From positions 1-64,000 of IMG/VR virus record IMGVR_UViG_3300037493_002747: 64,000 nucleotides of DNA, one strand, 5' to 3'. Source of the DNA: a virus. The notes beneath the pieces were generated by a model. That model searched no databases and was not told the DNA's origin. It was given only the letters and a program-made list of their open reading frames with translations. Of the stretch, positions 9 to 20,953 are shown piece after piece (positions within the stretch are counted from its first letter, which is position 1; each line of letters opens with the position of its first letter). The translations under genes were made by a program, and so were the position numbers.

Positions 9-716
9 ATGAATAGGATCGACAGGATTGCAGACATGGTTGCTGCTGACGTGGAGGTCAAGTATCCACGAACTCCTCATTTGCCATGGTCTGAGGGAGC
101 ATCCGAAGACGACATTCAACTTATTAACGCGGAAATGTTTGCAGGCAAGAATGTTGTTGTTACGGAGAAGCTGGATGGTGAAAACACCACAATGACATTT
201 GACCGGGTTCATGCCCGCAGTTTGGACAGCAGAGATCATCCTTCTAGGCATTGGGTGAAATCACTGTGGTCTCAGATGTGCTTTGACATTCCAGCAGGGA
301 TGCGGATTGTTGGTGAAAACCTTTATGCCAAGCATTCGATTTCCTACGAACGGTTGCCGTCTTACTTTTTGGTGTTTGCAGTGTTTGATGGTTCGACTTG
401 TCTGTCTTGGACAGAGACGGAGGAATGGTGTAGACTGTTTGGACTGCATCATGTCCCTGTGATTTATACGGGGCCGTGGGAGCGGACGAGGATCATGCAG
501 TGTTATACTGGACAAAGCAAATGTGGGGGATTACAGGAGGGATATGTCGTTAGAGATATGGGAAGATTTTCTTTCGGCCAGTTCTCGTCCAATGTTGCCA
601 AGTTTGTTCGCAAGGGACATGTGCAAACTTCCGAGCATTGGATGATGCAGAAGATTGTTCCTAACGGATTGATTCGGGTCGAGATTCCAGATTTCGTAGA
701 CCTCAAGGAGGCATAG
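9..716 (+). CDS. ATP-dependent RNA ligase family protein
   Basis: Nucleotidyltransferase motif I TEKLDGEN, KYPRTPHLPWS N-terminus, EGYVVR and AKFVR motifs. Confidence 0.85.
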   Translation: MNRIDRIADMVAADVEVKYPRTPHLPWSEGASEDDIQLINAEMFAGKNVVVTEKLDGENTTMTFDRVHARSLDSRDHPSRHWVKSLWSQMCFDIPAGMRIVGENLYAKHSISYERLPSYFLVFAVFDGSTCLSWTETEEWCRLFGLHHVPVIYTGPWERTRIMQCYTGQSKCGGLQEGYVVRDMGRFSFGQFSSNVAKFVRKGHVQTSEHWMMQKIVPNGLIRVEIPDFVDLKEA

Positions 717-5063: not shown

Positions 5064-5278
5064 AGTGGGTTGGGAATACACTTGTTCTATCTGATGGTAG
5101 CCTATTCACAGTCAACGAAGGCAATCTGGAACTTCGGGGGCAAGGCTGGGAGAGGCGGCGGAAGAAGGGTGATACCGAGAACACTGATTTGGCACGAATC
5201 TGTAGGTTTGAAGACGACGGCATGGCACGGAAAATCGCAGAAATGTTGGGGGAAATGGTAGAGGACACCGTATTCTGA
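5060..5278 (+). CDS. hypothetical protein
   Basis: ATGA overlap with the upstream gene; SD GAGG. Confidence 0.55.
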   Translation: MKWVGNTLVLSDGSLFTVNEGNLELRGQGWERRRKKGDTENTDLARICRFEDDGMARKIAEMLGEMVEDTVF

Positions 5279-5296
5279 CGGACTTCCGGCAATGTA
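5268..5296 (+). promoter_or_regulatory. CCGTATT-N14-GCAATGTA motif, copy 2
   Basis: Exact motif. Confidence 0.8.
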
Positions 5297-5850
5297 TGAG
5301 TATGAAAGTCACAGACATCAATCGTTATTACAGGAGTCCCAATACCACAACAGTGACTTGGGCATATCTCGAAAACACACTAGCTAGTTACGCCGATACA
5401 TGCGGTCTTCCTGGATGTCTTGGTCTGAATCTTGACCCAGACTTTCAGCGGGGACACGTTTGGTCTGAAGACAAGCAGATCGCATTTGTCGAGTTTTGCC
5501 TTCGTGAAGGGCAATACTCTCGTACCATTTTGTTCAATCACCCCGGATGGAATGATGACTATGCAGGGGAGATGGTCCTAGTGGACGGGAAACAACGGCT
5601 GGAGGCAGTCCGGAAGTTCATGCGGAACGAATTGCCCATCTTCGGTGGGAATCGGTTGAATGACTTCGATAATCCAAAGAGACTTTTGCGTACGAATGGG
5701 GCACATTTATTGTTCGGCATCAATACCTTGCAGACTCGCCGGGAGATTTTGGAGTGGTACTTGCAGATCAACACTGGTGGTGTTGTCCATACGGCTGAAG
5801 AGATTGCCAAGGTTGAGAGAATGCTTATCTCTGAGAATGGAGTTCAATGA
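5296..5850 (+). CDS. DUF262 (ParB/Srx-like) domain protein
   Basis: PDFQRGHVW and VDGKQRL motifs. Confidence 0.8.
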   Translation: MSMKVTDINRYYRSPNTTTVTWAYLENTLASYADTCGLPGCLGLNLDPDFQRGHVWSEDKQIAFVEFCLREGQYSRTILFNHPGWNDDYAGEMVLVDGKQRLEAVRKFMRNELPIFGGNRLNDFDNPKRLLRTNGAHLLFGINTLQTRREILEWYLQINTGGVVHTAEEIAKVERMLISENGVQ

Positions 5851-6751: not shown

Positions 6752-6757
6752 TTTCAT

Positions 6758-6786
6758 CCGTATTCTGACTGACTTTTGGCAATGTA
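6758..6786 (+). promoter_or_regulatory. CCGTATT-N14-GCAATGTA motif, copy 3
   Basis: Exact motif. Confidence 0.8.
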
Positions 6787-6807
6787 TTGGTGTGAAGGGG
6801 AAGCATT

Positions 6808-7746: not shown

Positions 7747-7752
7747 TTCCAT

Positions 7753-7781
7753 CCGTATTTTGACCGATTTCTGGCAATGTA
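7753..7781 (+). promoter_or_regulatory. CCGTATT-N14-GCAATGTA motif, copy 4
   Basis: Exact motif. Confidence 0.8.
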
Positions 7782-7799
7782 TTGATGGAGGATAAAACG

Positions 7800-16301: not shown

Positions 16302-16682
16302 ATGAGTCAGACCAAAGCGCAGCGCAAGAAACAACAAAAGTCGAAGTCGCGTGAGAAGCAGATCAAGAAAAACAGGAACATTCTGCGGAATGTTGCTGTA
16401 AAGAGATTCCGTCTTGATGTGCATATGGGGGATGATTGGAAGATTGGAGTACGACAGTGGTCCAATATTCAGCAGGTAGAAGCTCATAGAGTAGAAACTG
16501 AAGCTCGTCGTGCCAAGGGCGAGGAGATTCTGATGGGTCGGGTGGTTGATATGGCCATTGGCAATGGCAAGGTGATCTTGAACATTCCTGGAGCAACGCC
16601 AAAGCCAAAGGGTATGGCACCTGACAAGATCGCAGATGGTGCAAAGGCTTGGGATTGTGAGTACGATTCTGGCACCAAGTAA
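16302..16682 (+). CDS. basic hypothetical protein
   Basis: SD AGGGAG; upstream TATAAT; K/R-rich N-terminus. Confidence 0.65.
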   Translation: MSQTKAQRKKQQKSKSREKQIKKNRNILRNVAVKRFRLDVHMGDDWKIGVRQWSNIQQVEAHRVETEARRAKGEEILMGRVVDMAIGNGKVILNIPGATPKPKGMAPDKIADGAKAWDCEYDSGTK

Positions 16683-16700
16683 GAAACTCTGAAAATTTCT

Positions 16701-16729
16701 CCGTATTTTGCAGGGCGGTTGGCAATGTA
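16701..16729 (+). promoter_or_regulatory. CCGTATT-N14-GCAATGTA motif, copy 8 (head of ncRNA island)
   Basis: Exact motif. Confidence 0.8.
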
Positions 16730-16739
16730 TGGATGTGCG

Positions 16740-16907
16740 GATGTTCTACTGAGGATTCGGGCGTTGTTATAGCAAACCGAGTCATTGGTTTAGCGGCCAA
16801 CAAGACAGGGGCGTAAGGCGACAACGAAAAGTGGTTTAGCGGCCTCTCCCGAGTCTTCAGTAGAGCATCTGAGTGTGAGGCGATAAAGTGGGTTCAATTC
16901 CCATCAG
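16740..16907 (+). ncRNA. structured ncRNA with a 22-bp closing stem plus a T-arm-like hairpin
   Basis: 16740-16761 pairs with 16848-16869 (three G-U pairs, so + strand); duplicated TGGTTTAGCGGCC; GTGGG-TTCAATT-CCCAT. Confidence 0.55.
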
Positions 16908-16970
16908 TAGTAGGGTCAGCCCGAACCTGGGACGGTATGGATCGTGGCTTTACATGTTCTTTGACAATTT

Positions 16971-17327
16971 GAGACGAGTGATGGGTGGTAGGCTCAGAAG
17001 CAGCCATCCATAAAAAGTGAGTCGCTGAGTTCTAATCCGTGAGAGCCGCTGGAAAAGTGGCTAGTCGGATAGGCGAACAGAGATTGGGTAGGCGGGACGG
17101 GACCCGATGTCAGGACTTGTAGTGTTGTAGTCTAAAGCTGTAGATTTTTACGGCATAAAGTCTACTGTAGCTCAGTCTTGAGTGTACTGCTCTGTTGTGC
17201 GGCGTTAGAAGGTTGCGGCTTCCATGGAAGATGTAGAAAGTTCGTGTGGTTGACTTAGTATCTTCCAAGGCCAAACTCAACTGCATGGTGGACTCTTTGG
17301 CGTAATAGCAAACCCATCACAAGTCTT
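16971..17327 (+). ncRNA. ncRNA containing a 23S rRNA H43/H44 (uL11-binding) mimic
   Basis: TGGTAGGCTCAGAAGCAGCCATCCA and GCGTAATAGC closed by a GTGATGGG/CCCATCAC stem. Confidence 0.7.
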
Positions 17328-17421
17328 TTCTGGGATCAGTCGTGGAGCTAAGAATGTTAAAAACATTTGGACTAAGAAGCGACTCAAGTCATGGCTATGA
17401 AAGTGGGCCATGAGATTCCAG

Positions 17422-17610
17422 CGGACCATCAGCGAGCCGAATTACGCTGGGATGAAGCGAGTTGCAAAAGCGGCAAGCGGATTCCGAATAGAGTCGGTGG
17501 GATCGAGATCTGATTGGATTCGGTGGGTTCCTGTTCTGATTAGAGTAGTCTGATTAGATTCGGTGGGTTCCTGTTCTGATTAGAAGATCATCCCGTAAAC
17601 TTGTGGTCCG
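17422..17610 (+). ncRNA. putative structured ncRNA with an internal tandem repeat
   Basis: CGGACCA/TGGTCCG and GGGATGA/TCATCCC long-range stems; followed by a T-tract. Confidence 0.4.
17509..17584. repeat. two 36-nt direct repeats (period 40)
   Basis: TCTGATTRGATTCGGTGGGTTCCTGTTCTGATTAGA at 17509 and 17549. Confidence 0.9.
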
Positions 17611-17639
17611 GTCTTTTTTGAATCTCGTGATAACAGAAG

Positions 17640-18040
17640 TTAAATCTCCTGTAGTATGCCAAGTTGTATAGGTATAGGAGATTCTTATGCGGCAAGACGG
17701 TTTCTAAGCCCGTCTACGAGCATTTTTGTAGCATTGTGTGCAAACCCGACAGGAGAGGCACACGACAAGCGCAGATAGAAAAGGCCGCTCATGGCTCGTG
17801 AATAGGGAAGAGAGAGGTCGTAGGGTGTACAACCGAAAACCCAATCTTGTCTAGCTTAGATGGTGGAGGGTGACGGGGAAACCTGTCGCCCCTGACTCGA
17901 AAGGGCGTTCGTGGAAATCGAACTAGACCTGTGATGGCGACCGTAGCACCACAGAGACGAGTAGCAGGTCGAAATAAACGTGGATCGGTGACAGTCGGGA
18001 GAGTACCGACAACTTTTTTGTTAGGTTTTGCTGTCTGTGG
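17640..18040 (+). ncRNA. putative large multi-branched ncRNA(s)
   Basis: No credible ORF; nested helices and GNRA-type loops. Confidence 0.4.
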
Positions 18041-18084
18041 GTATAATGACTCATGGAGAAAAGAAGTGTGTGATGATTTTTCTT

Positions 18085-18113
18085 CCGTATTTGACACGGA
18101 GTGTGGCAATGTA
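18085..18113 (+). promoter_or_regulatory. CCGTATT-N14-GCAATGTA motif, copy 9 (upstream of tmRNA)
   Basis: Exact motif. Confidence 0.8.
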
Positions 18114-18142
18114 GTGTCAGATTTGATTGTTCTTTGATATAT

Positions 18143-18554
18143 GGGGACGAGTGGTTTCGACGAGTGTTATTGAAACTGGTCGACATGCCGAGGACACAGG
18201 TGGGCCTCGTAAATCATCCTGTAAAAAAACAACTGCCAACACTTTTGGCAAGGTGATTCGTGGTTTCTTTGGAGTGGCTGCTGAGGCTACTCCGATGCTT
18301 GCCGCTGCCTAAACAGGCACACCTCCAAAACTCCGGAGTTTCTATGACAACCGGATGAGGATCAAAGAGAATAGATGACGGTCTGCAAAGACAGGCGATG
18401 CCGGGAATGAGACGCACCGGGGCGGATAGTCGAAGACATCCCTGAAAGAAGGGATAGACCAAGTCCGTGGTCGAGAAACATCGTGACGAAGCATGTGTAT
18501 GTTCAGTTGATTTATTATTCGGACAGGGGGTTCGACTCCCCCTCGTCTCCACCA
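18143..18554 (+). ncRNA. ssrA: tmRNA
   Basis: Acceptor stem GGGGACG/CGTCTCC with G3-U; GGTTTCGAC; T-arm GGGGGTTCGACTCCCCC; ACCA end; tag frame 18235-18312 ANTFGKVIRGFFGVAAEATPMLAAA*. Confidence 0.93.
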
Positions 18555-18588
18555 TTTTCAGAGATAATGAGGAAAGTTTGAAAAAGTG

Positions 18589-18618
18589 TTGAAAACTTAC
18601 TCGTTGTCGGAGTATAGT
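18589..18618 (+). promoter_or_regulatory. sigma70-like promoter
   Basis: TTGAAA-18 nt-TATAGT; predicted start coincides with the next RNA. Confidence 0.5.
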
Positions 18619-18625
18619 GATTTGT

Positions 18626-18831
18626 GAACGAAGTCAGGCTCCTTCAGGACTGGGTTACTTCATTACAAAAGCGAAAAAATCTCGGCGGTCTATGAGGACC
18701 GAAATTGAGATGACGATCTGCAAAGACAGAGTGGAATTCCGGGAAGACGGAATGGAGGCGTGGGAAGACACGCAAATGACAGCTCGGAAAGACGGCTTAC
18801 CTAGGACGAATATCGGAGTTTGATGGAGTTC
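18626..18831 (+). ncRNA. Y-RNA-like ncRNA 1 (with hairpin array)
   Basis: Terminal stem GTCAGGCTCC/GGAGTTTGAT; CCTTCAG..GGGTTACTTC..ACGAATATCGG core shared with the next RNA; upstream of Ro60. Confidence 0.55.
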
Positions 18832-18841
18832 TTGAGTTTTT

Positions 18842-18906
18842 GCTTGATACCTTCAGTTTGGGGTTACTTCTTGGTGAAAAACCCCCAAACGATTATTGGT
18901 GTCGGC
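18842..18906 (+). ncRNA. Y-RNA-like ncRNA 2 (minimal)
   Basis: Stems GCTTGATACC/GGTGTCGGC and GTTTGGGG/CCCCAAAC; same CCTTCAG, GGGTTACTTC and ACGATTATTGG core. Confidence 0.55.
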
Positions 18907-18914
18907 TATATTAT

Positions 18915-18991
18915 TGCGGGGTAGAGCAGCCCGGTAGCTTATCAGGCTCATAACCTGAAGGTCGCTGGTTCAAATCCAGCCCCCGCAACCA
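18915..18991 (+). tRNA. tRNA-Met (CAT), initiator-like
   Basis: Cloverleaf: TGCGGGG/CCCCGCA, A11-U24, anticodon loop CTCATAA, TTCAAAT T-loop, encoded CCA. Confidence 0.93.
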
Positions 18992-18993
18992 AT

Positions 18994-19031
18994 AAAGGCC
19001 GGACATCAATAAAAGGATGTTCGGCTTTTTC
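18994..19031 (+). terminator. Rho-independent terminator
   Basis: AAGGCCGGACATC/GATGTTCGGCTTT hairpin plus T-tract. Confidence 0.7.
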
Positions 19032-19140
19032 TTTGTATCGAATCGTGTAGGTTCAATGTTCTGTGTGGAACATTGGGAATAAGGGTGCCGAAAGGCACAA
19101 AATTGGTGGTAGAGATATCACCTTCAAGGAGGTAAGAGAA

Positions 19141-20895
19141 GTGAATAAGGTAAAGAAGGTCGCAAGGAGTAGGGCTTCGGTAGCAAGTCTGCCGAGCAAC
19201 GCAAAGGCCGCATCGGTAAACCGGGCGGGCGGAGTGGCATTCGAGGTAAATGATCCGGCATTGAAGTTGATCACCATGACTGGTGGGTCTTTCTTCGCCG
19301 AGCCGAGGTTCTATAACGCAGAGGCATGTGTACCTAAGCGTGGGACTGGCGGTAAGTTCGAGAAGCTGGCAGCGAGGCTAGAGATCGTGGATGGCAAGCT
19401 GAAGGGCTTTGTCACCTGTGATGAGCTTCCTGAGACGGCTCGTGAGGTTATCGCAACGGCTATCGATGTCGCCAAGGGTAAGACCCCGGAGGACATGCTG
19501 GCAATCGCCAACTGGCTTCGTAATGAGATGAACATCCGGATGACCCCGCAGATTTTGCTGGTGTTGGCATCTCAGATGGATGGGACTAAGTCACTGGTTC
19601 GGAAGTATGCGACTCACATCGTGAAGCGTCCGGATGAGGTTAAGACCTGTCTGTTGACTCATCGTTTTCTGTTCGGGCTGAAGAATCTCCCGAATGGCCT
19701 AGCGAGTGGATTGGCTGATGCTACGAGTAAGTTCGGTGAGCGTGGGTTGATGAAGTACGACGACTCTGGCTTTCCGACTTGGAAGGACGTTCTTTGCTGG
19801 CTTCCGCGTAAGGCTGGATGGCCGCTGAGTGCTGAGGTCGCCAAGTATTTCATCACCGGCAAGATTGATGACCCGGCTAAGACTCCGATCATCGCGGCTC
19901 GTAAGGAGTTGGTGAAGAAGACTGTGTTCGATACCGAGGCTCGTGACCTGGCAAAGAAGTCCCAAGTCAACTGGGAGGTCTTGCTGTCTCAGTTCGGTAA
20001 GGAGAAGAACAAGGTGTGGTCGTTTCTGATCGACAACGGTCTGATTGGCTACATGGCTCTGCTCCGTAATCTGAAGAACATCTTGGAGGCGAAGGTTTCC
20101 AAGGGTGTCATTCAGAAGGTATCGGATAAGCTCTCGAACAAGGACGAGGTTGCCAAGTCAAAGCAGCTTCCGTTCAGGTTCCTGTCGGCAAAGACGGTAT
20201 TGGATACTATGTCTAGTGGTTTCGATCTTGCGGACTACTCGGAGGTCGTGGCGGCTATTGAGTTGGCGGCAAATGAGGCATGTGCCAATATCCCGGTAAT
20301 GTCGGGTGAGACCATGGTGTTTGCAGACAATTCTGGTTCGATGACGAGTGCAAAATTGTCGGAGAAGTCGGCACGGAACTGTCGTGATGCTGCAAATATG
20401 CTGTCTGGTATCGCCGCCAAGGTATGTGAGAGGCCGTACCTGTTCGCATTTGGATCGAGTCTTCAGGAGATTCGTTTTGCCAAGACGGATACCGTAATGG
20501 GTATCTGTGACAAGGTAAAGCGATCAGGGGACGGTGGTTCTACGAATGGTCACCTGTGCATTGAGCATTTGATCAAGTCTGGGAAGACTCCGGCACGGGT
20601 TATCATCCTGACGGACTGTCAGATGTGGAATGATAACAGTAACGGTGGTGGTCAGCCGTTTGCGAATGCATGGGCGAAGTACCGGAAGTCAAGTAAGGCT
20701 GCGGCGGAGACTTGGCTTCATATCGTTCACCTTTCGGGATACGGGGATAGTCCAGTGGATGTGGGAGAGAGGGTGAATCAGGTCTCTGGGTTCTCAGAGA
20801 AGGTATTCACATCGATCCTCACTGTCGAGGGAGTTATGGGATCTACTCCACTCCCTACGGTGGAGCAGGTAAGGAATGGGTGGACGGTGAAATAG
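19141..20895 (+). CDS. Ro60/Rsr-like TROVE + vWA RNA-binding protein
   Basis: NRAGG N-terminus, RPDE, YMALLRNL, KQLPFRF, MIDAS DNSGSM, IILTD; SD AAGGAGGT before GTG. Confidence 0.9.
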   Translation: MNKVKKVARSRASVASLPSNAKAASVNRAGGVAFEVNDPALKLITMTGGSFFAEPRFYNAEACVPKRGTGGKFEKLAARLEIVDGKLKGFVTCDELPETAREVIATAIDVAKGKTPEDMLAIANWLRNEMNIRMTPQILLVLASQMDGTKSLVRKYATHIVKRPDEVKTCLLTHRFLFGLKNLPNGLASGLADATSKFGERGLMKYDDSGFPTWKDVLCWLPRKAGWPLSAEVAKYFITGKIDDPAKTPIIAARKELVKKTVFDTEARDLAKKSQVNWEVLLSQFGKEKNKVWSFLIDNGLIGYMALLRNLKNILEAKVSKGVIQKVSDKLSNKDEVAKSKQLPFRFLSAKTVLDTMSSGFDLADYSEVVAAIELAANEACANIPVMSGETMVFADNSGSMTSAKLSEKSARNCRDAANMLSGIAAKVCERPYLFAFGSSLQEIRFAKTDTVMGICDKVKRSGDGGSTNGHLCIEHLIKSGKTPARVIILTDCQMWNDNSNGGGQPFANAWAKYRKSSKAAAETWLHIVHLSGYGDSPVDVGERVNQVSGFSEKVFTSILTVEGVMGSTPLPTVEQVRNGWTVK

Positions 20896-20915
20896 TGGCC
20901 TAGAAAGGCTATTTG

Positions 20916-20953
20916 GAGGGGGTGGTGTCGAAAGGCATTGCCCCCTCTTTTTT
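20916..20953 (+). terminator. Rho-independent terminator
   Basis: GC-rich hairpin with GAAA loop plus T-tract. Confidence 0.75.

What the first reader, a model, noticed from the sequence alone, without database searches (positions are those of the whole stretch)
16701..20895. Phage RNA island: several structured RNAs + tmRNA + Y-like RNAs + tRNA-Met + Ro60
Seen: ~2.4 kb without credible ORFs in an otherwise dense genome, with three candidate promoters, terminators and at least six structured units, ending at a TROVE/vWA gene; an RNA ligase lies in the same window. Known: bacterial Ro60 (Rsr) binds adjacently encoded Y RNAs and is often linked to RNA repair; tmRNA rescues stalled ribosomes. 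Inference: a coordinated system that protects or takes over translation against host RNA-cleaving or translation-arrest defences, using RNA mimics as well as proteins.
Basis: partly seen in the sequence, partly recalled or inferred. Interest (0 to 1): 0.8.

Follow-up and report, generated by a model that had tools for sequence, protein, structure and literature searches.

The report
Phage RNA-gene island around Ro60
A large uncultured phage packs about ten non-coding RNA genes in front of its Ro60 RNA-binding protein: a ribosome-rescue tmRNA, an initiator tRNA, two partner "Y" RNAs with a lineage-specific handle, and a copy of a ribosomal RNA site. This is an enlarged, unusual version of a known phage system.

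Summary
Window 16683-19140 is 2.46 kb with no conserved ORF, lying in a fragment of a jumbo phage. It holds a tmRNA (18143-18554) and an initiator-type tRNA-Met (18915-18991), and it ends at a Ro60 gene (19141-20895).

The two "Y-like" RNAs are real (18626-18831 and 18846-18903). They share a two-helix handle, C-UUCA-G / UUACUUC / C-GAUUAUU-GG. This handle covaries strongly and occurs 53 times in 49 relatives' loci, always upstream of Ro60 and on the Ro60 strand. Its architecture is that of YrlA/YrlB, but it lacks the published CGAA motif, and in this window it lacks the tRNA-like domain. Rfam YrlA does not detect it.

Upstream lie:
- a mimic of the 23S rRNA GTPase-associated centre (16972-17326);
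- a permuted tRNA-like element;
- a degenerate twister ribozyme;
- other conserved structured RNAs that match no Rfam family.

A phage promoter motif and a leader motif (GTTCTTTGA, 43 copies on the + strand against 3 on the - strand) tie the units together.

The anti-defence "coordinated system" reading is untested. Only Y RNAs plus Ro60 (often with tRNA-fMet and tmRNA) travel together widely.

This scan has already noted the rRNA mimic in at least 32 other genomes, and a similar Ro60/Y/tmRNA island in a salt-lake phage.

Verdict: a new variant of a known kind.

The parts
16700..16730 (+). Phage-type promoter motif (CCGTATTnTG...GGCAATGTAT) in front of unit A
   Evidence: There are five copies in the window, all on the + strand: three before protein genes, one here, one before the tmRNA. 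GGYAATGTRK gives 5 hits against 0.98 expected, reached by 0 of 100 shuffles.
16739..16870 (+). Unit A1: long irregular hairpin carrying two hairpins with UUAGCG hexaloops
   Evidence: z = -3.9. It is 77% identical to L002, with pairs kept. The hexaloop stems covary against L003 (GG/CC to CC/GG; read). No Rfam match.
16873..16955 (+). Unit A2: closing stem around three hairpins in the order T-arm-like (16888-16904), acceptor-like, D-like. This is a permuted tRNA-like fold without a Ro handle.
   Evidence: RNAalifold of window plus L002. The T-arm-like stem has two compensatory changes. The 3' half is 100% conserved. ARAGORN and Rfam do not call it.
16956..16964 (+). Leader motif GTTCTTTGA before the rRNA mimic
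   Evidence: 43 copies on the + strand against 3 on the - strand in 374 kb of window plus relatives (chance about 1.4 per strand). It always lies 5-25 nt 5' of an RNA gene.
16972..17326 (+). Unit B: mimic of the 23S rRNA GTPase-associated centre. H43 core at 16986-17010, H44 hexaloop motif at 17300-17309, 15-bp closing stem at 16972-16986/17312-17326. A ~255-nt insert (17025-17280) is closed by GAGUC/GACUC.
   Evidence: blastn-short against E. coli rrlH: 17/18 to positions 1062-1079. L003 matches 21/21 (E 1e-5) and L046 19/20. GCGUAAUAGC equals positions 1091-1100. Pairs 1057-1058/1080-1081 are changed compensatorily. The closing stems of window, L002 and L003 differ in sequence but all pair.
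17330..17421 (+). Unit C1: Y-shaped structured RNA
   Evidence: MFE fold. It is conserved in L002, and both of its hairpins carry compensatory changes (alignment A1).
17422..17617 (+). Unit C2: stem-closed RNA (CGGACCAU/GUGGUCCG) holding three copies of a 36-40-nt repeat, followed by a U-run. Seen only in this genome.
   Evidence: Repeat family D1 and fold. No homologue in relatives. A scan for the repeat found only chance-level matches.
17632..17714 (+). Unit D1: degenerate twister (type P5) ribozyme
   Evidence: It is homologous to the Rfam Twister-P5 hits in L002 (48.6 bits) and L003 (38 bits). In the window, cleavage-site UAA has become UUA and two of the four CGCA/UGCG pairs are lost. No Rfam hit even at E<=10 in 241 nt.
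17735..18017 (+). Unit D2: structured RNA ending in a terminator (17994-18010 plus U-run)
   Evidence: The 3' domain is conserved in L002, L005 and L017, with 7 covarying pairs. Terminator.
18018..18139 (+). tmRNA control region: sigma-70-like promoter 18018-18047, phage-type promoter 18084-18114, leader GTTCTTTGA 18129-18137
   Evidence: The leader lies 5-7 nt before tmRNA G1 in six lineages.
18143..18554 (+). tmRNA. 25-aa tag ending MLAAA, G3-U70 acceptor, CCA encoded.
   Evidence: Rfam RF00023 117 bits (cut-off 47) and ARAGORN. tmRNA is present in relatives L002, L003, L005, L006, L010, L015, L016, L019, L023, L024, L033, L035.
18589..18618 (+). Sigma-70-like promoter (TTGAAA-18-TATAGT) of the Y RNA / tRNA-fMet operon
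   Evidence: It is conserved in L002, L050, L010 and L003.
18626..18831 (+). Large Y RNA: Ro handle plus four hairpins with CAAAGA, GGAAGA (twice) and GAAAGA loops
   Evidence: R1 hits its 5' half (21.9 bits). RNAalifold of window/L003/L005/L010 gives 43 pairs, 8 with compensatory changes, with loops conserved and stems covarying. A 22-nt stretch is 21/22 identical to part of the tmRNA (repeat D4).
18846..18903 (+). Mini Y RNA: bare Ro handle (YrlB-like hairpin), 11 nt before the tRNA
   Evidence: R1 63 bits, E 1.7e-14. It belongs to alignment A3, where 93.5% of cells pair against 67.4% in shuffles.
18915..18991 (+). Initiator-type tRNA-Met (CAU)
   Evidence: ARAGORN and Rfam. Gapless alignment with E. 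coli initiator metZ; 89.5% identity to the best E. coli tRNA-Met genes, whose type is not annotated. A11:U24 is present. Position 1:72 is U:A here and a U-U or C-U mismatch in most relatives.
18994..19029 (+). Intrinsic terminator ending the Y / tRNA transcript
   Evidence: 14-bp stem plus T-run.
19141..20895 (+). Ro60 orthologue (TROVE ring plus vWA domain), 584 aa. Terminator at 20915-20948.
   Evidence: Pfam TROVE 1.6e-21 and vWA_Ro60 1e-7. PHROG 850 'RNA-binding protein' 5.8e-38. The only PDB sequence hits are Thermus phage phiLo Ro60, 9KOP/9L5Y, E 1.3e-10. 25-29% identical to annotated Ro-like proteins of cultured phages.

Best explanation
This is a mosaic RNA-gene island of a jumbo phage. 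Its conserved core is a phage Ro60 ribonucleoprotein module.

Shown here: a sigma-70-like promoter is followed by a large Y RNA, a mini Y RNA and an initiator-type tRNA-Met, then by a terminator and the Ro60 gene. Both Y RNAs carry one handle: an outer helix with a bulge, an asymmetric internal loop (5' UUCA, 3' GAUUAUU), an inner helix, then UUACUUC. This handle covaries and accompanies this Ro60 clade everywhere. A phage tmRNA with its own promoters lies just upstream. Further upstream lie a copy of the 23S rRNA GTPase-associated centre, a permuted tRNA-like RNA, a twister relic and other structured RNAs, driven by a phage promoter and separated by one shared leader motif.

Inferred: the handle binds the outer face of the Ro60 ring, as in YrlA/YrlB and the Thermus phage phiLo Yrl RNAs. 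The variable head (here four hexaloop hairpins) tethers a partner, most likely a host exoribonuclease such as PNPase. RNase P cutting at the tRNA releases the mini Y RNA. The tmRNA (with host SmpB) and the initiator tRNA support phage translation. The rRNA mimic acts away from the ribosome as a decoy for something that binds that site.

The units are co-expressed cargo, not a proven single machine.
For: Identity of the parts.

Handle:
- Alignment A3 has 23 copies. 93.5% of cells pair against 67.4% in shuffles, and 87 cells have changes on both sides against 26.5. None of 500 shuffles reached either value. Slid controls give 37-49%.
- Model R1 finds 2 sites in the 64-kb window. It finds 53 sites in 312 kb of 49 relatives' loci, all on the Ro60 strand and upstream of Ro60.
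- In the reverse direction, R1-confirmed handles from a pattern scan lie on 5 contigs. Four of these carry Ro60; the fifth is a fragment estimated 9% complete.

Link to known Y RNAs:
- Some relatives' copies carry a T-arm followed by a D-arm, as in YrlA.
- Cultured-phage YrlA-like RNAs next to Ro60 share UACUUC and the 4-nt/7-nt internal loop. One unit in CcrColossus is intermediate in sequence.
- Published precedent: Chen 2014 (PMC4201824) and phiLo Ro60-Yrl-PNPase (PMC12135203).

Large Y fold. Initiator tRNA. rRNA mimic. Shared promoter and leader motifs. Island conserved in relatives.
Against: - There are no transcription, binding or processing data.
- Rfam YrlA gives no hit in this genome even at E<=10.
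- The published GNCGAAN0-1G/CGAA motif is absent from the 5' strand.
- The window's two Y RNAs have no tRNA-like domain.
- No SmpB or PNPase gene was found on this contig, which is estimated 23% complete.
- The rRNA mimic lies within 7 kb of Ro60 only in the nearest relatives.
- In the 253-kb relative G002, three further handle RNAs lie 37 kb from Ro60, so adjacency is not obligatory.
- The partner of the hexaloop hairpins is a guess.
Confidence: 0.8

Rival explanations
1. One reading: the whole block (structured RNAs, tmRNA, Y RNAs, tRNA-Met, Ro60 and the RNA ligase) is one coordinated counter-defence system. It would protect or take over translation when the host cleaves RNAs or arrests ribosomes.
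For: The units are co-oriented, with a shared promoter motif and a shared leader motif. All identifiable units relate to translation or RNA surveillance. Jumbo phages are reported to combine tRNAs, RNA ligases and TROVE proteins as RNA-repair kits (PMC7824862). A 21/22-nt hairpin is shared by the tmRNA and the large Y RNA.
Against: Linkage is modular. The rRNA mimic accompanies Ro60 only in the closest relatives; elsewhere it sits in tRNA arrays without Ro60. tRNA-fMet is present in only about half of the loci. The RNA ligase is 16 kb away. There are no functional data of any kind.
Confidence: 0.2
2. The handle elements are not trans-acting Ro60 partners. They are cis-acting parts of the tRNA-fMet/Ro60 transcript: processing signals, stabilisers, or an autoregulatory leader that controls Ro60 expression.
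For: They lie directly upstream of the tRNA and Ro60 on the same strand. The mini Y ends 11 nt before the tRNA, and the short linker is conserved (ends in ..GAU or ..UAU) in many relatives.
Against: There are up to five or more copies per locus, at variable distances. A terminator separates them from Ro60 in the window. Three copies lie 37 kb from Ro60 in G002. Some copies carry full T/D tRNA-like heads as in YrlA. The architecture is shared with RNAs shown to bind Ro60 in other systems.
Confidence: 0.07
3. The rRNA-like unit B is a dead fragment of host 23S rRNA picked up by the phage, and the rest of 16700-18015 is non-functional spacer.
For: Sequence identity to 23S rRNA is confined to about 35 nt. 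Unit C2 has no homologue. The twister copy is degenerate.
Against: In 85 distinct phage sequences the pair 1058-1080 covaries (UA 27, GC 24, AU 20, CG 5; 93% paired) around an invariant H43 core. The closing stems of window, L002 and L003 differ in sequence but all pair. Units A, B, C1 and D2 are conserved with compensatory changes. None of 12 family members examined is part of an rRNA gene.
Confidence: 0.04
4. The stretch hides small protein genes, for example the 68-codon frame 18617-18823.
For: tblastn of that frame matches L003, L010 and L005 at 39-49% identity.
Against: Its start codon lies inside the -10 box of the promoter. L005 and L010 carry 22- and 19-nt insertions that break the frame, and L005 matches in two different frames. 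The same DNA folds into hairpins with compensatory changes. No Pfam or PHROG support was found for any neighbouring small frame.
Confidence: 0.03

Closest known systems
Bacterial and phage Ro60 (Rsr) with YrlA/YrlB Y RNAs (Rfam RF02553; Chen et al. 2014, PMC4201824), and Thermus phage phiLo Ro60 with Yrl1/Yrl2 and host PNPase (PMC12135203)
   Same: The Ro60 gene has two or more small RNAs just upstream on the same strand. The 5' and 3' ends pair into a stem with an asymmetric internal loop. A YUAY (UUAC) element and the start of a V-arm follow. One RNA is a plain hairpin (YrlB-like). The RNAs are processed from one precursor. Relatives' copies carry T, AS and D arms.
   Different: The internal-loop letters differ: C-UUCA-G / C-GAUUAUU-GG in place of GNCGAAN0-1G (CGAA). 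The window's two RNAs have no tRNA-like domain; one carries four hexaloop hairpins instead. A real initiator tRNA follows the mini Y RNA. The Rfam model does not detect them.
Phage-encoded tmRNA (Rfam RF00023) and phage initiator tRNAs
   Same: The tmRNA is a full-length one-piece molecule with alanine identity and a degradation tag. The tRNA aligns without gaps to E. coli tRNA-fMet.
   Different: The tag is long, 25 aa. Two hairpins in the pseudoknot region have the same loop type as the Y RNA hairpins. The tRNA has U1:A72 here (U-U in relatives) in place of C1-A72, and two rather than three G-C pairs at 29-31/39-41.
GTPase-associated centre of bacterial 23S rRNA (H42 tip, H43, H44; E. coli 1051-1108)
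   Same: The H43 core matches 17/18. The H44 motif GCGUAAUAGC is identical. The lower H43 pairs are kept by compensatory change. The ends are closed by a helix in the place of H42.
   Different: It is a free-standing RNA of about 355 nt with a 255-nt insert between H43 and H44. The H44 stem is shortened. U1066 is C. I found no description of it in Rfam 15 or in the paper library. This scan has noted the family in at least 32 other phage genomes, there mostly inside tRNA arrays.
Type-P5 twister ribozyme (Rfam RF02684)
   Same: It is homologous to bona fide hits in L002 and L003. The P4 stem and AAGCCC loop are kept, with a compensatory change in the stem.
   Different: The adenine at the cleavage site is replaced (UAA to UUA) and half of the first helix is lost. 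It scores below any Rfam threshold and is probably inactive.

Membership tests
tmRNA (RF00023) | Covariance-model score above the curated cut-off over the full model | tested here: met
   117 bits against 47, model positions 1-374.
tmRNA (RF00023) | tRNA-like end with G3-U70 and CCA, and a tag reading frame with a stop | tested here: met
   GGGGACG...CGUCUCCACCA read. ARAGORN tag of 25 aa ending MLAAA.
tmRNA (RF00023) | SmpB partner | tested here: inconclusive
   PF01668 is absent from the 75.8-kb contig, which is only about 23% complete. Host SmpB could serve.
Bacterial initiator tRNA | CAU anticodon, A11:U24, and close similarity to tRNA-fMet | tested here: met
   Gapless alignment with E. 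coli metZ, which is annotated as initiator. 89.5% identity to the best E. coli tRNA-Met genes.
Bacterial initiator tRNA | No Watson-Crick pair at 1:72, and three G-C pairs at 29-31/39-41 | tested here: inconclusive
   The window has U1:A72 (a weak pair) and two G-C pairs. Most relatives have a U-U or C-U mismatch, and some have three G-C pairs.
Ro60 / TROVE | TROVE HEAT-repeat ring plus a C-terminal vWA domain | tested here: met
   PF05731 77.4 bits (cut-off 23) and PF25045 32.5 bits (cut-off 27.7). PDB hits 9KOP/9L5Y.
YrlA (RF02553) | Match to the Rfam covariance model | tested here: not met
   No hit at E<=10 in the region or the whole contig. The same model hits next to Ro60 in Gordonia phage Neville (44 bits) and CcrColossus (42 and 30 bits).
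YrlA (RF02553) | GNCGAAN0-1G motif near the 5' end | tested here: not met
   The same position reads N-C-UUCA-G in all 23 aligned copies.
YrlA (RF02553) | Terminal stem with internal loop, then YUAY opening a V arm | tested here: met
   Two covarying helices, invariant UUACUUC, and a CUUC..GAA hairpin.
YrlA (RF02553) | Internal tRNA-like domain (T arm, AS, D arm) | tested here: not met
   It is absent from both window copies. It is present in relatives' copies such as L033 6141-6292 and L056 1868-2006.
YrlA (RF02553) | Encoded within about 4 kb of Ro60 on the same strand | tested here: met
   238 and 310 nt upstream of Ro60 in the window. All 53 hits in relatives are upstream and co-oriented.
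YrlA (RF02553) | Bound by Ro60 | not testable with these tools
   Needs EMSA or RIP.
Phage mimic of the 23S GTPase-associated centre | H43 core and H44 hexaloop sequences of 23S rRNA, in the right order, closed by a helix | tested here: met
   17/18 match to 1062-1079. GCGUAAUAGC equals 1091-1100. 15-bp closing stem.
Phage mimic of the 23S GTPase-associated centre | H43 lower helix kept by covariation across the family | tested here: met
   85 phage sequences: pair 1058-1080 is 93% paired with four pair types. The window has G-C, G-C and U-A.
Phage mimic of the 23S GTPase-associated centre | Binds uL11, thiostrepton or translation GTPases | not testable with these tools
   Needs binding assays.
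Twister-P5 ribozyme (RF02684) | Covariance-model score, and conserved cleavage-site UAA | tested here: not met
   No hit in a 241-nt search at E<=10. UAA is replaced by UUA, and two pairs of the first helix are lost.

The most novel reading that the evidence does not exclude
The Y RNAs of this phage clade may be display scaffolds. On one Ro60-binding handle they would present interchangeable mimics of translation-machinery RNA: tRNA-like heads in some copies, and arrays of hexaloop hairpins in others. In relatives these hexaloops read GUAAUA or GUAAGA, the loop of 23S helix 44; in this window they read GGAAGA, GAAAGA or CAAAGA. Together with the free-standing copy of the GTPase-associated centre in the same island, they would capture a factor that docks on that ribosomal site (uL11, a translation GTPase, a stringent-response or ribosome-targeting defence protein) and hand it or its RNA to the Ro60 ring and an exonuclease.
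Probability: 0.1. Interest if true: 0.85.

Novelty: new variant of a known kind. Interest (0 to 1): 0.6.

Why it matters
Phage Ro60 particles have only just begun to be studied; there is one structure, from 2025. This clade supplies more than 50 natural Y RNA variants with one handle and swappable heads. That gives a ready-made series for asking what Ro60 recognises and what the heads recruit.

The handle also shows that the published CGAA motif is not universal, so catalogue searches miss whole lineages.

The island places an undescribed mimic of the ribosomal factor-binding site, a tmRNA and an initiator tRNA under the same promoter and leader signals as the Ro60 system. This gives testable hypotheses on how large phages manage translation and RNA surveillance.

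Tried and rejected
- **Rfam search.** Rfam at the gathering threshold and at E<=10 found only the tmRNA and the tRNA in the island. The weak 'permuted tmRNA' match (20.8 bits) is just the tmRNA 3' end plus the next RNA.
- **YrlA model.** No hit in this genome.
- **Other rRNA mimics.** A 12-mer match of the twister region to 23S 2046-2057, and 17/18 matches of L003 to 23S 240-257 and 1917-1934, are at noise level. A similar 17/18 hit falls on a ribosome-binding site, and plain 13-14-mers score as well in coding DNA. The second L003 match is better read as a D-arm-like sequence.
- **E. coli blast.** Blastn of the island against E. coli genomes found nothing because of database size.
- **Hidden ORFs.** Rejected.
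- **Hexaloop strand asymmetry.** It is confounded by purine-rich coding strands; a control motif shows the same bias. It is therefore not used as evidence.
- **Handle pattern scan.** The scan of viral contigs for the handle returned mostly chance matches. Only 6 of 23 loci are real by R1.
- **Unit C2 repeat.** Chance-level matches only.
- **Syntenic upstream protein.** The 126-aa protein at 16302-16682 has no Pfam, PHROG or Atlas lead.
- **Literature.** Searches for a described phage rRNA-site mimic found none.

Full report
**Context.** The window is the first 64 kb of a 75.8-kb IMG/VR virus record that CheckV estimates to be 23% complete. Relatives lie on contigs of up to 338 kb, so this is a fragment of a jumbo phage. 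Genes are dense and almost all on the + strand.

**The observation.** ORF 16302-16682 ends 2,458 nt before the Ro60 start. That start is GTG at 19141 with an AAGGAGG ribosome-binding site, and relatives align from this codon. No + strand ORF in between exceeds 68 aa.
- I translated the six longest frames on either strand and compared them with 19 relatives' loci. The two flanking control ORFs gave E 1e-35 to 1e-55.
- The internal frames matched only where a conserved RNA or the antisense of Ro60 explains the match.
- The best internal frame (18617-18823) starts inside a promoter -10 box. It is broken by 22- and 19-nt insertions in L005 and L010.
- ARAGORN and Rfam agree on a tmRNA at 18143-18554 (117 bits against a cut-off of 47) and a tRNA-Met(CAU) at 18915-18991.
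- The 584-aa protein has a TROVE domain and a Ro60-type vWA domain. It hits PHROG 850. Its only sequence relatives in the PDB are the two entries for Thermus phage phiLo Ro60.

**Relatives.** The Ro60 protein retrieved 8 loci from viral contigs and 49 from metagenomes, at 43-83% identity.
- ORF-poor islands of 3-5 kb precede Ro60 in L002, L003, L005 and L006.
- A tmRNA lies upstream in many lineages. A tRNA-Met lies directly before Ro60 in about half of the loci.
- Segment by segment, the stretch between the tmRNA and the tRNA is the most widely conserved. Units A and B are shared with L002 and L003. Unit D2 is shared with L002, L005 and L017. Unit C2 is shared with none.

**The Y RNAs.** One module recurs in front of the tRNA and Ro60 in nearly all relatives.
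- Its layout is: an outer helix with a bulged base, C-UUCA-G, an inner helix ending GGG, UUACUUC, a variable head, the inner helix, C-GAUUAUU-GG, the outer helix, then a U-rich tail.
- Covariation:
  - Twenty-three short copies align with invariant CUUC, UACUUC and GG.
  - On the two helices, 93.5% of cells pair against 67.4% in shuffles.
  - 87 cells carry changes on both sides against 26.5.
  - None of 500 shuffles reached either value, and slid controls give 37-49%.
- A covariance model (R1) finds exactly two sites in the 64-kb window. One is 18843-18911 (63 bits). The other is the 5' half of a larger RNA at 18635-18707, whose closing strand lies at about 18806-18831.
- R1 finds 53 sites in 312 kb of relatives' loci, all on the Ro60 strand and all upstream of Ro60.
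- In the reverse direction, a pattern scan of viral contigs gave R1-confirmed handles on five contigs. Four of them carry Ro60, and the fifth is a fragment estimated 9% complete.
- In the 253-kb relative G002, three further handle RNAs cluster 37 kb from Ro60. Adjacency is therefore usual but not obligatory.

**Are they YrlA?** Chen et al. 2014 define YrlA by four features: a 5' GNCGAAN0-1G motif, a YUAY that opens a V loop, then T, AS and D arms, and a position within 4 kb of Ro60 on the same strand. They also describe hairpin-like second Y RNAs (YrlB, Yrn2) and processing of both RNAs from one precursor.
- The Rfam YrlA model finds nothing in this genome at E<=10. It does find sub-threshold hits beside Ro60 in Gordonia phage Neville and Caulobacter phage CcrColossus.
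- Those canonical copies read GGUGG-CGUA-G, stem, UACUUC ... stem, UUGUUCC-CCACC.
- They have the same architecture as mine (a 4-nt and a 7-nt loop strand, followed by UACUUC) but different loop letters. One CcrColossus unit (CGACAG / CGAUAAUU) is intermediate.
- Several relatives' copies carry a T arm followed by a D arm inside the handle.

I conclude that these are divergent members of the bacterial and phage Y RNA superfamily. [quoted passage not shown]
- The mini Y (18846-18903) is YrlB-like.
- The large Y (18626-18831) carries four hairpins with CAAAGA, GGAAGA, GGAAGA and GAAAGA loops. Their stems covary among window, L003, L005 and L010 while the loops stay fixed.
- One of these hairpins is 21/22 identical to a stretch of the tmRNA. 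Similar hairpins occur in the tmRNAs of several relatives.
- In other relatives the Y heads carry GUAAUA or GUAAGA hexaloops. GUAAUA is also the loop of 23S helix 44. I record this but cannot assess its significance.

**Expression signals.**
- A sigma-70-like promoter (TTGAAA-18-TATAGT, 18589-18618) is conserved in four relatives. It places the transcript start at the foot of the large Y stem.
- The terminator at 18994-19029 follows the tRNA.
- The mini Y ends 11 nt before the tRNA, and the short linker is conserved across the clade. RNase P cleavage would therefore release it; this step is inferred.
- A phage-type promoter motif (CCGTATTnTGAC...GGCAATGTAT) occurs five times in the window, always on the + strand. 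Three copies precede protein genes, one precedes unit A and one precedes the tmRNA.
- The 9-mer GTTCTTTGA occurs 43 times on the + strand and 3 times on the - strand in 374 kb, where chance predicts about 1.4 per strand. It always lies 5-25 nt before an RNA gene (the tmRNA in six lineages, Y RNAs, the rRNA mimic, some Ro60 leaders), often 6-8 nt after a -10 box. It is a clade-wide leader of RNA genes. Whether it is a start-site element or a processing signal is unknown.

**tRNA and tmRNA.**
- The tRNA aligns without gaps to E. coli initiator metZ, and it is 89.5% identical to the best E. coli tRNA-Met genes.
- It has A11:U24. It has U1:A72 and two G-C pairs in the anticodon stem.
- Most relatives have a U-U or C-U mismatch at 1:72, which is the initiator hallmark.
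- The tmRNA has the G3-U70 alanine determinant and a 25-aa tag ending MLAAA.
- No SmpB gene lies on the contig.

**The upstream 1.3 kb.** An earlier first-stage note on this window (e1-6031384) proposed that 16971-17327 copies the GTPase-associated centre of 23S rRNA. I tested this against E. coli rrlH fetched from RefSeq.
- Window 16991-17008 matches 23S 1062-1079 at 17/18. L003 matches 1057-1077 at 21/21 (E 1e-5). L046 matches 19/20.
- GCGUAAUAGC at 17300-17309 equals 23S 1091-1100.
- Pairs 1057-1058/1080-1081 are changed compensatorily.
- A 15-bp stem closes the ends. Its sequence differs completely in L003 yet still pairs.
- A 255-nt insert sits between the two helices.
Only three look like real rRNA.
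- In 85 distinct phage copies the pair 1058-1080 is UA 27, GC 24, AU 20 and CG 5.
- Of twelve such loci searched, at least seven carry the copy inside a tRNA array, and no Rfam family covers any of the twelve.
- Two literature searches found no description.
- This scan has reported the family in at least 32 other genomes, so it is not new to the scan.
- Within 7 kb of Ro60 it occurs only in the window, L002, L003 and L046.

The other upstream units are as follows.
- **Unit A1** is a long hairpin with two UUAGCG hexaloop hairpins. They covary against L003, and the same motif sits in the head of L002's mini Y.
- **Unit A2** is a permuted tRNA-like fold with a covarying T-arm-like hairpin.
- **Unit C1** is conserved in L002, with compensatory changes.
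- **Unit C2** is a stem-closed RNA with three repeats, and it is unique to this genome.
- **Unit D1** is homologous to genuine Twister-P5 hits in L002 and L003. It has lost the cleavage-site adenine and half of a helix, so it is probably a relic.
- **Unit D2** has a conserved 3' domain and a terminator.

**Mechanism.**
- Shown: the gene content, the folds supported by covariation, the strand and position rules, and the shared signals.
- Inferred from the Deinococcus, Salmonella, Mycobacterium and phiLo systems: the handle binds Ro60, the heads tether a partner such as host PNPase, and the particle acts on structured RNAs.
- Inferred from general knowledge of the families: the tmRNA and the initiator tRNA support phage translation.
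- Speculative: the rRNA mimic acts as a decoy off the ribosome, and the units cooperate in any way.
The conserved core is Ro60 plus handle RNAs. The rest behaves as exchangeable cargo that shares expression signals.

**Verdict.** This is a real, well-organised RNA island. Its Ro60/Y part is a new variant of a known phage system. Its tmRNA and tRNA are ordinary for large phages. Its rRNA mimic belongs to a family that appears undescribed in print but has been seen repeatedly in this scan.

Noticed in passing
window 16956-16964 and 18129-18137; 41 further + strand sites in L002-L057: A clade-wide 9-mer leader, GTTCTTTGA, lies 5-25 nt before RNA genes. There are 43 copies on the + strand and 3 on the - strand. 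It may be a start-site element or a processing signal.
   Followed up: partly
window 5267-5297, 6757-6787, 7752-7782, 16700-16730, 18084-18114: Phage-specific promoter-like motif CCGTATTnTGAC-N9-10-GGCAATGTAT. It is shared by three protein genes and two RNA units, and all copies are on the + strand.
   Followed up: partly
window 16302-16682: A 126-aa protein with no family match sits immediately upstream of the RNA island in at least 10 relatives (tblastn E down to 1e-35). Its function is unknown.
   Followed up: partly
window 18373-18394 and 18708-18729: A 22-nt stretch including a CAAAGA-loop hairpin is 21/22 identical in the tmRNA and the large Y RNA. Hairpins of the GRAAGA type recur in the tmRNAs of L002, L006, L010, L016 and L050.
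   Followed up: partly
L002 1690-2150 and L003 2700-3200: Relatives carry a further large RNA of about 480 nt between the rRNA mimic and the twister. It is absent from the window, and no Rfam family matches it.
   Followed up: no
L002 2182-2270 and L003 3436-3512: Intact Twister-P5 ribozymes (48.6 and 38 bits) lie inside the relatives' RNA islands. They may act as RNA-processing elements.
   Followed up: partly
L002 2650-4830: A cluster of small protein-coding ORFs is inserted into the RNA island of the closest relative.
   Followed up: no
L003 1056-1293, L015 127-357, L031 4733-4953: These handle RNAs have heads that begin with a conserved GGUUCUAAGGUAGCUCAGGUC, which is D-arm-like. It is also 17/18 identical to 23S 1917-1934, which I judged to be chance.
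   Followed up: partly
G002 (253-kb relative) 106984-109141: A second cluster of handle RNAs lies 37 kb from that phage's Ro60 gene.
   Followed up: partly
L182 3585-3800 (Gordonia phage Neville) and L183 2700-3900 (Caulobacter phage CcrColossus): Cultured phages carry unannotated YrlA-like RNAs beside Ro60: about seven tandem units in CcrColossus. In Neville they overlap annotated 'hypothetical protein' genes gp88-gp90.
   Followed up: partly
window 9-716: An RNA ligase (PF09414, 1.5e-33) lies 16 kb upstream. It is followed by glycosyltransferase, methyltransferase, DNA methylase and GmrSD-like genes.
   Followed up: no
window 19030-19140: The Ro60 5' leader holds three small hairpins, one with a GAAA loop. 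It is conserved at the nucleotide level in L002. It is a possible regulatory element.
   Followed up: no
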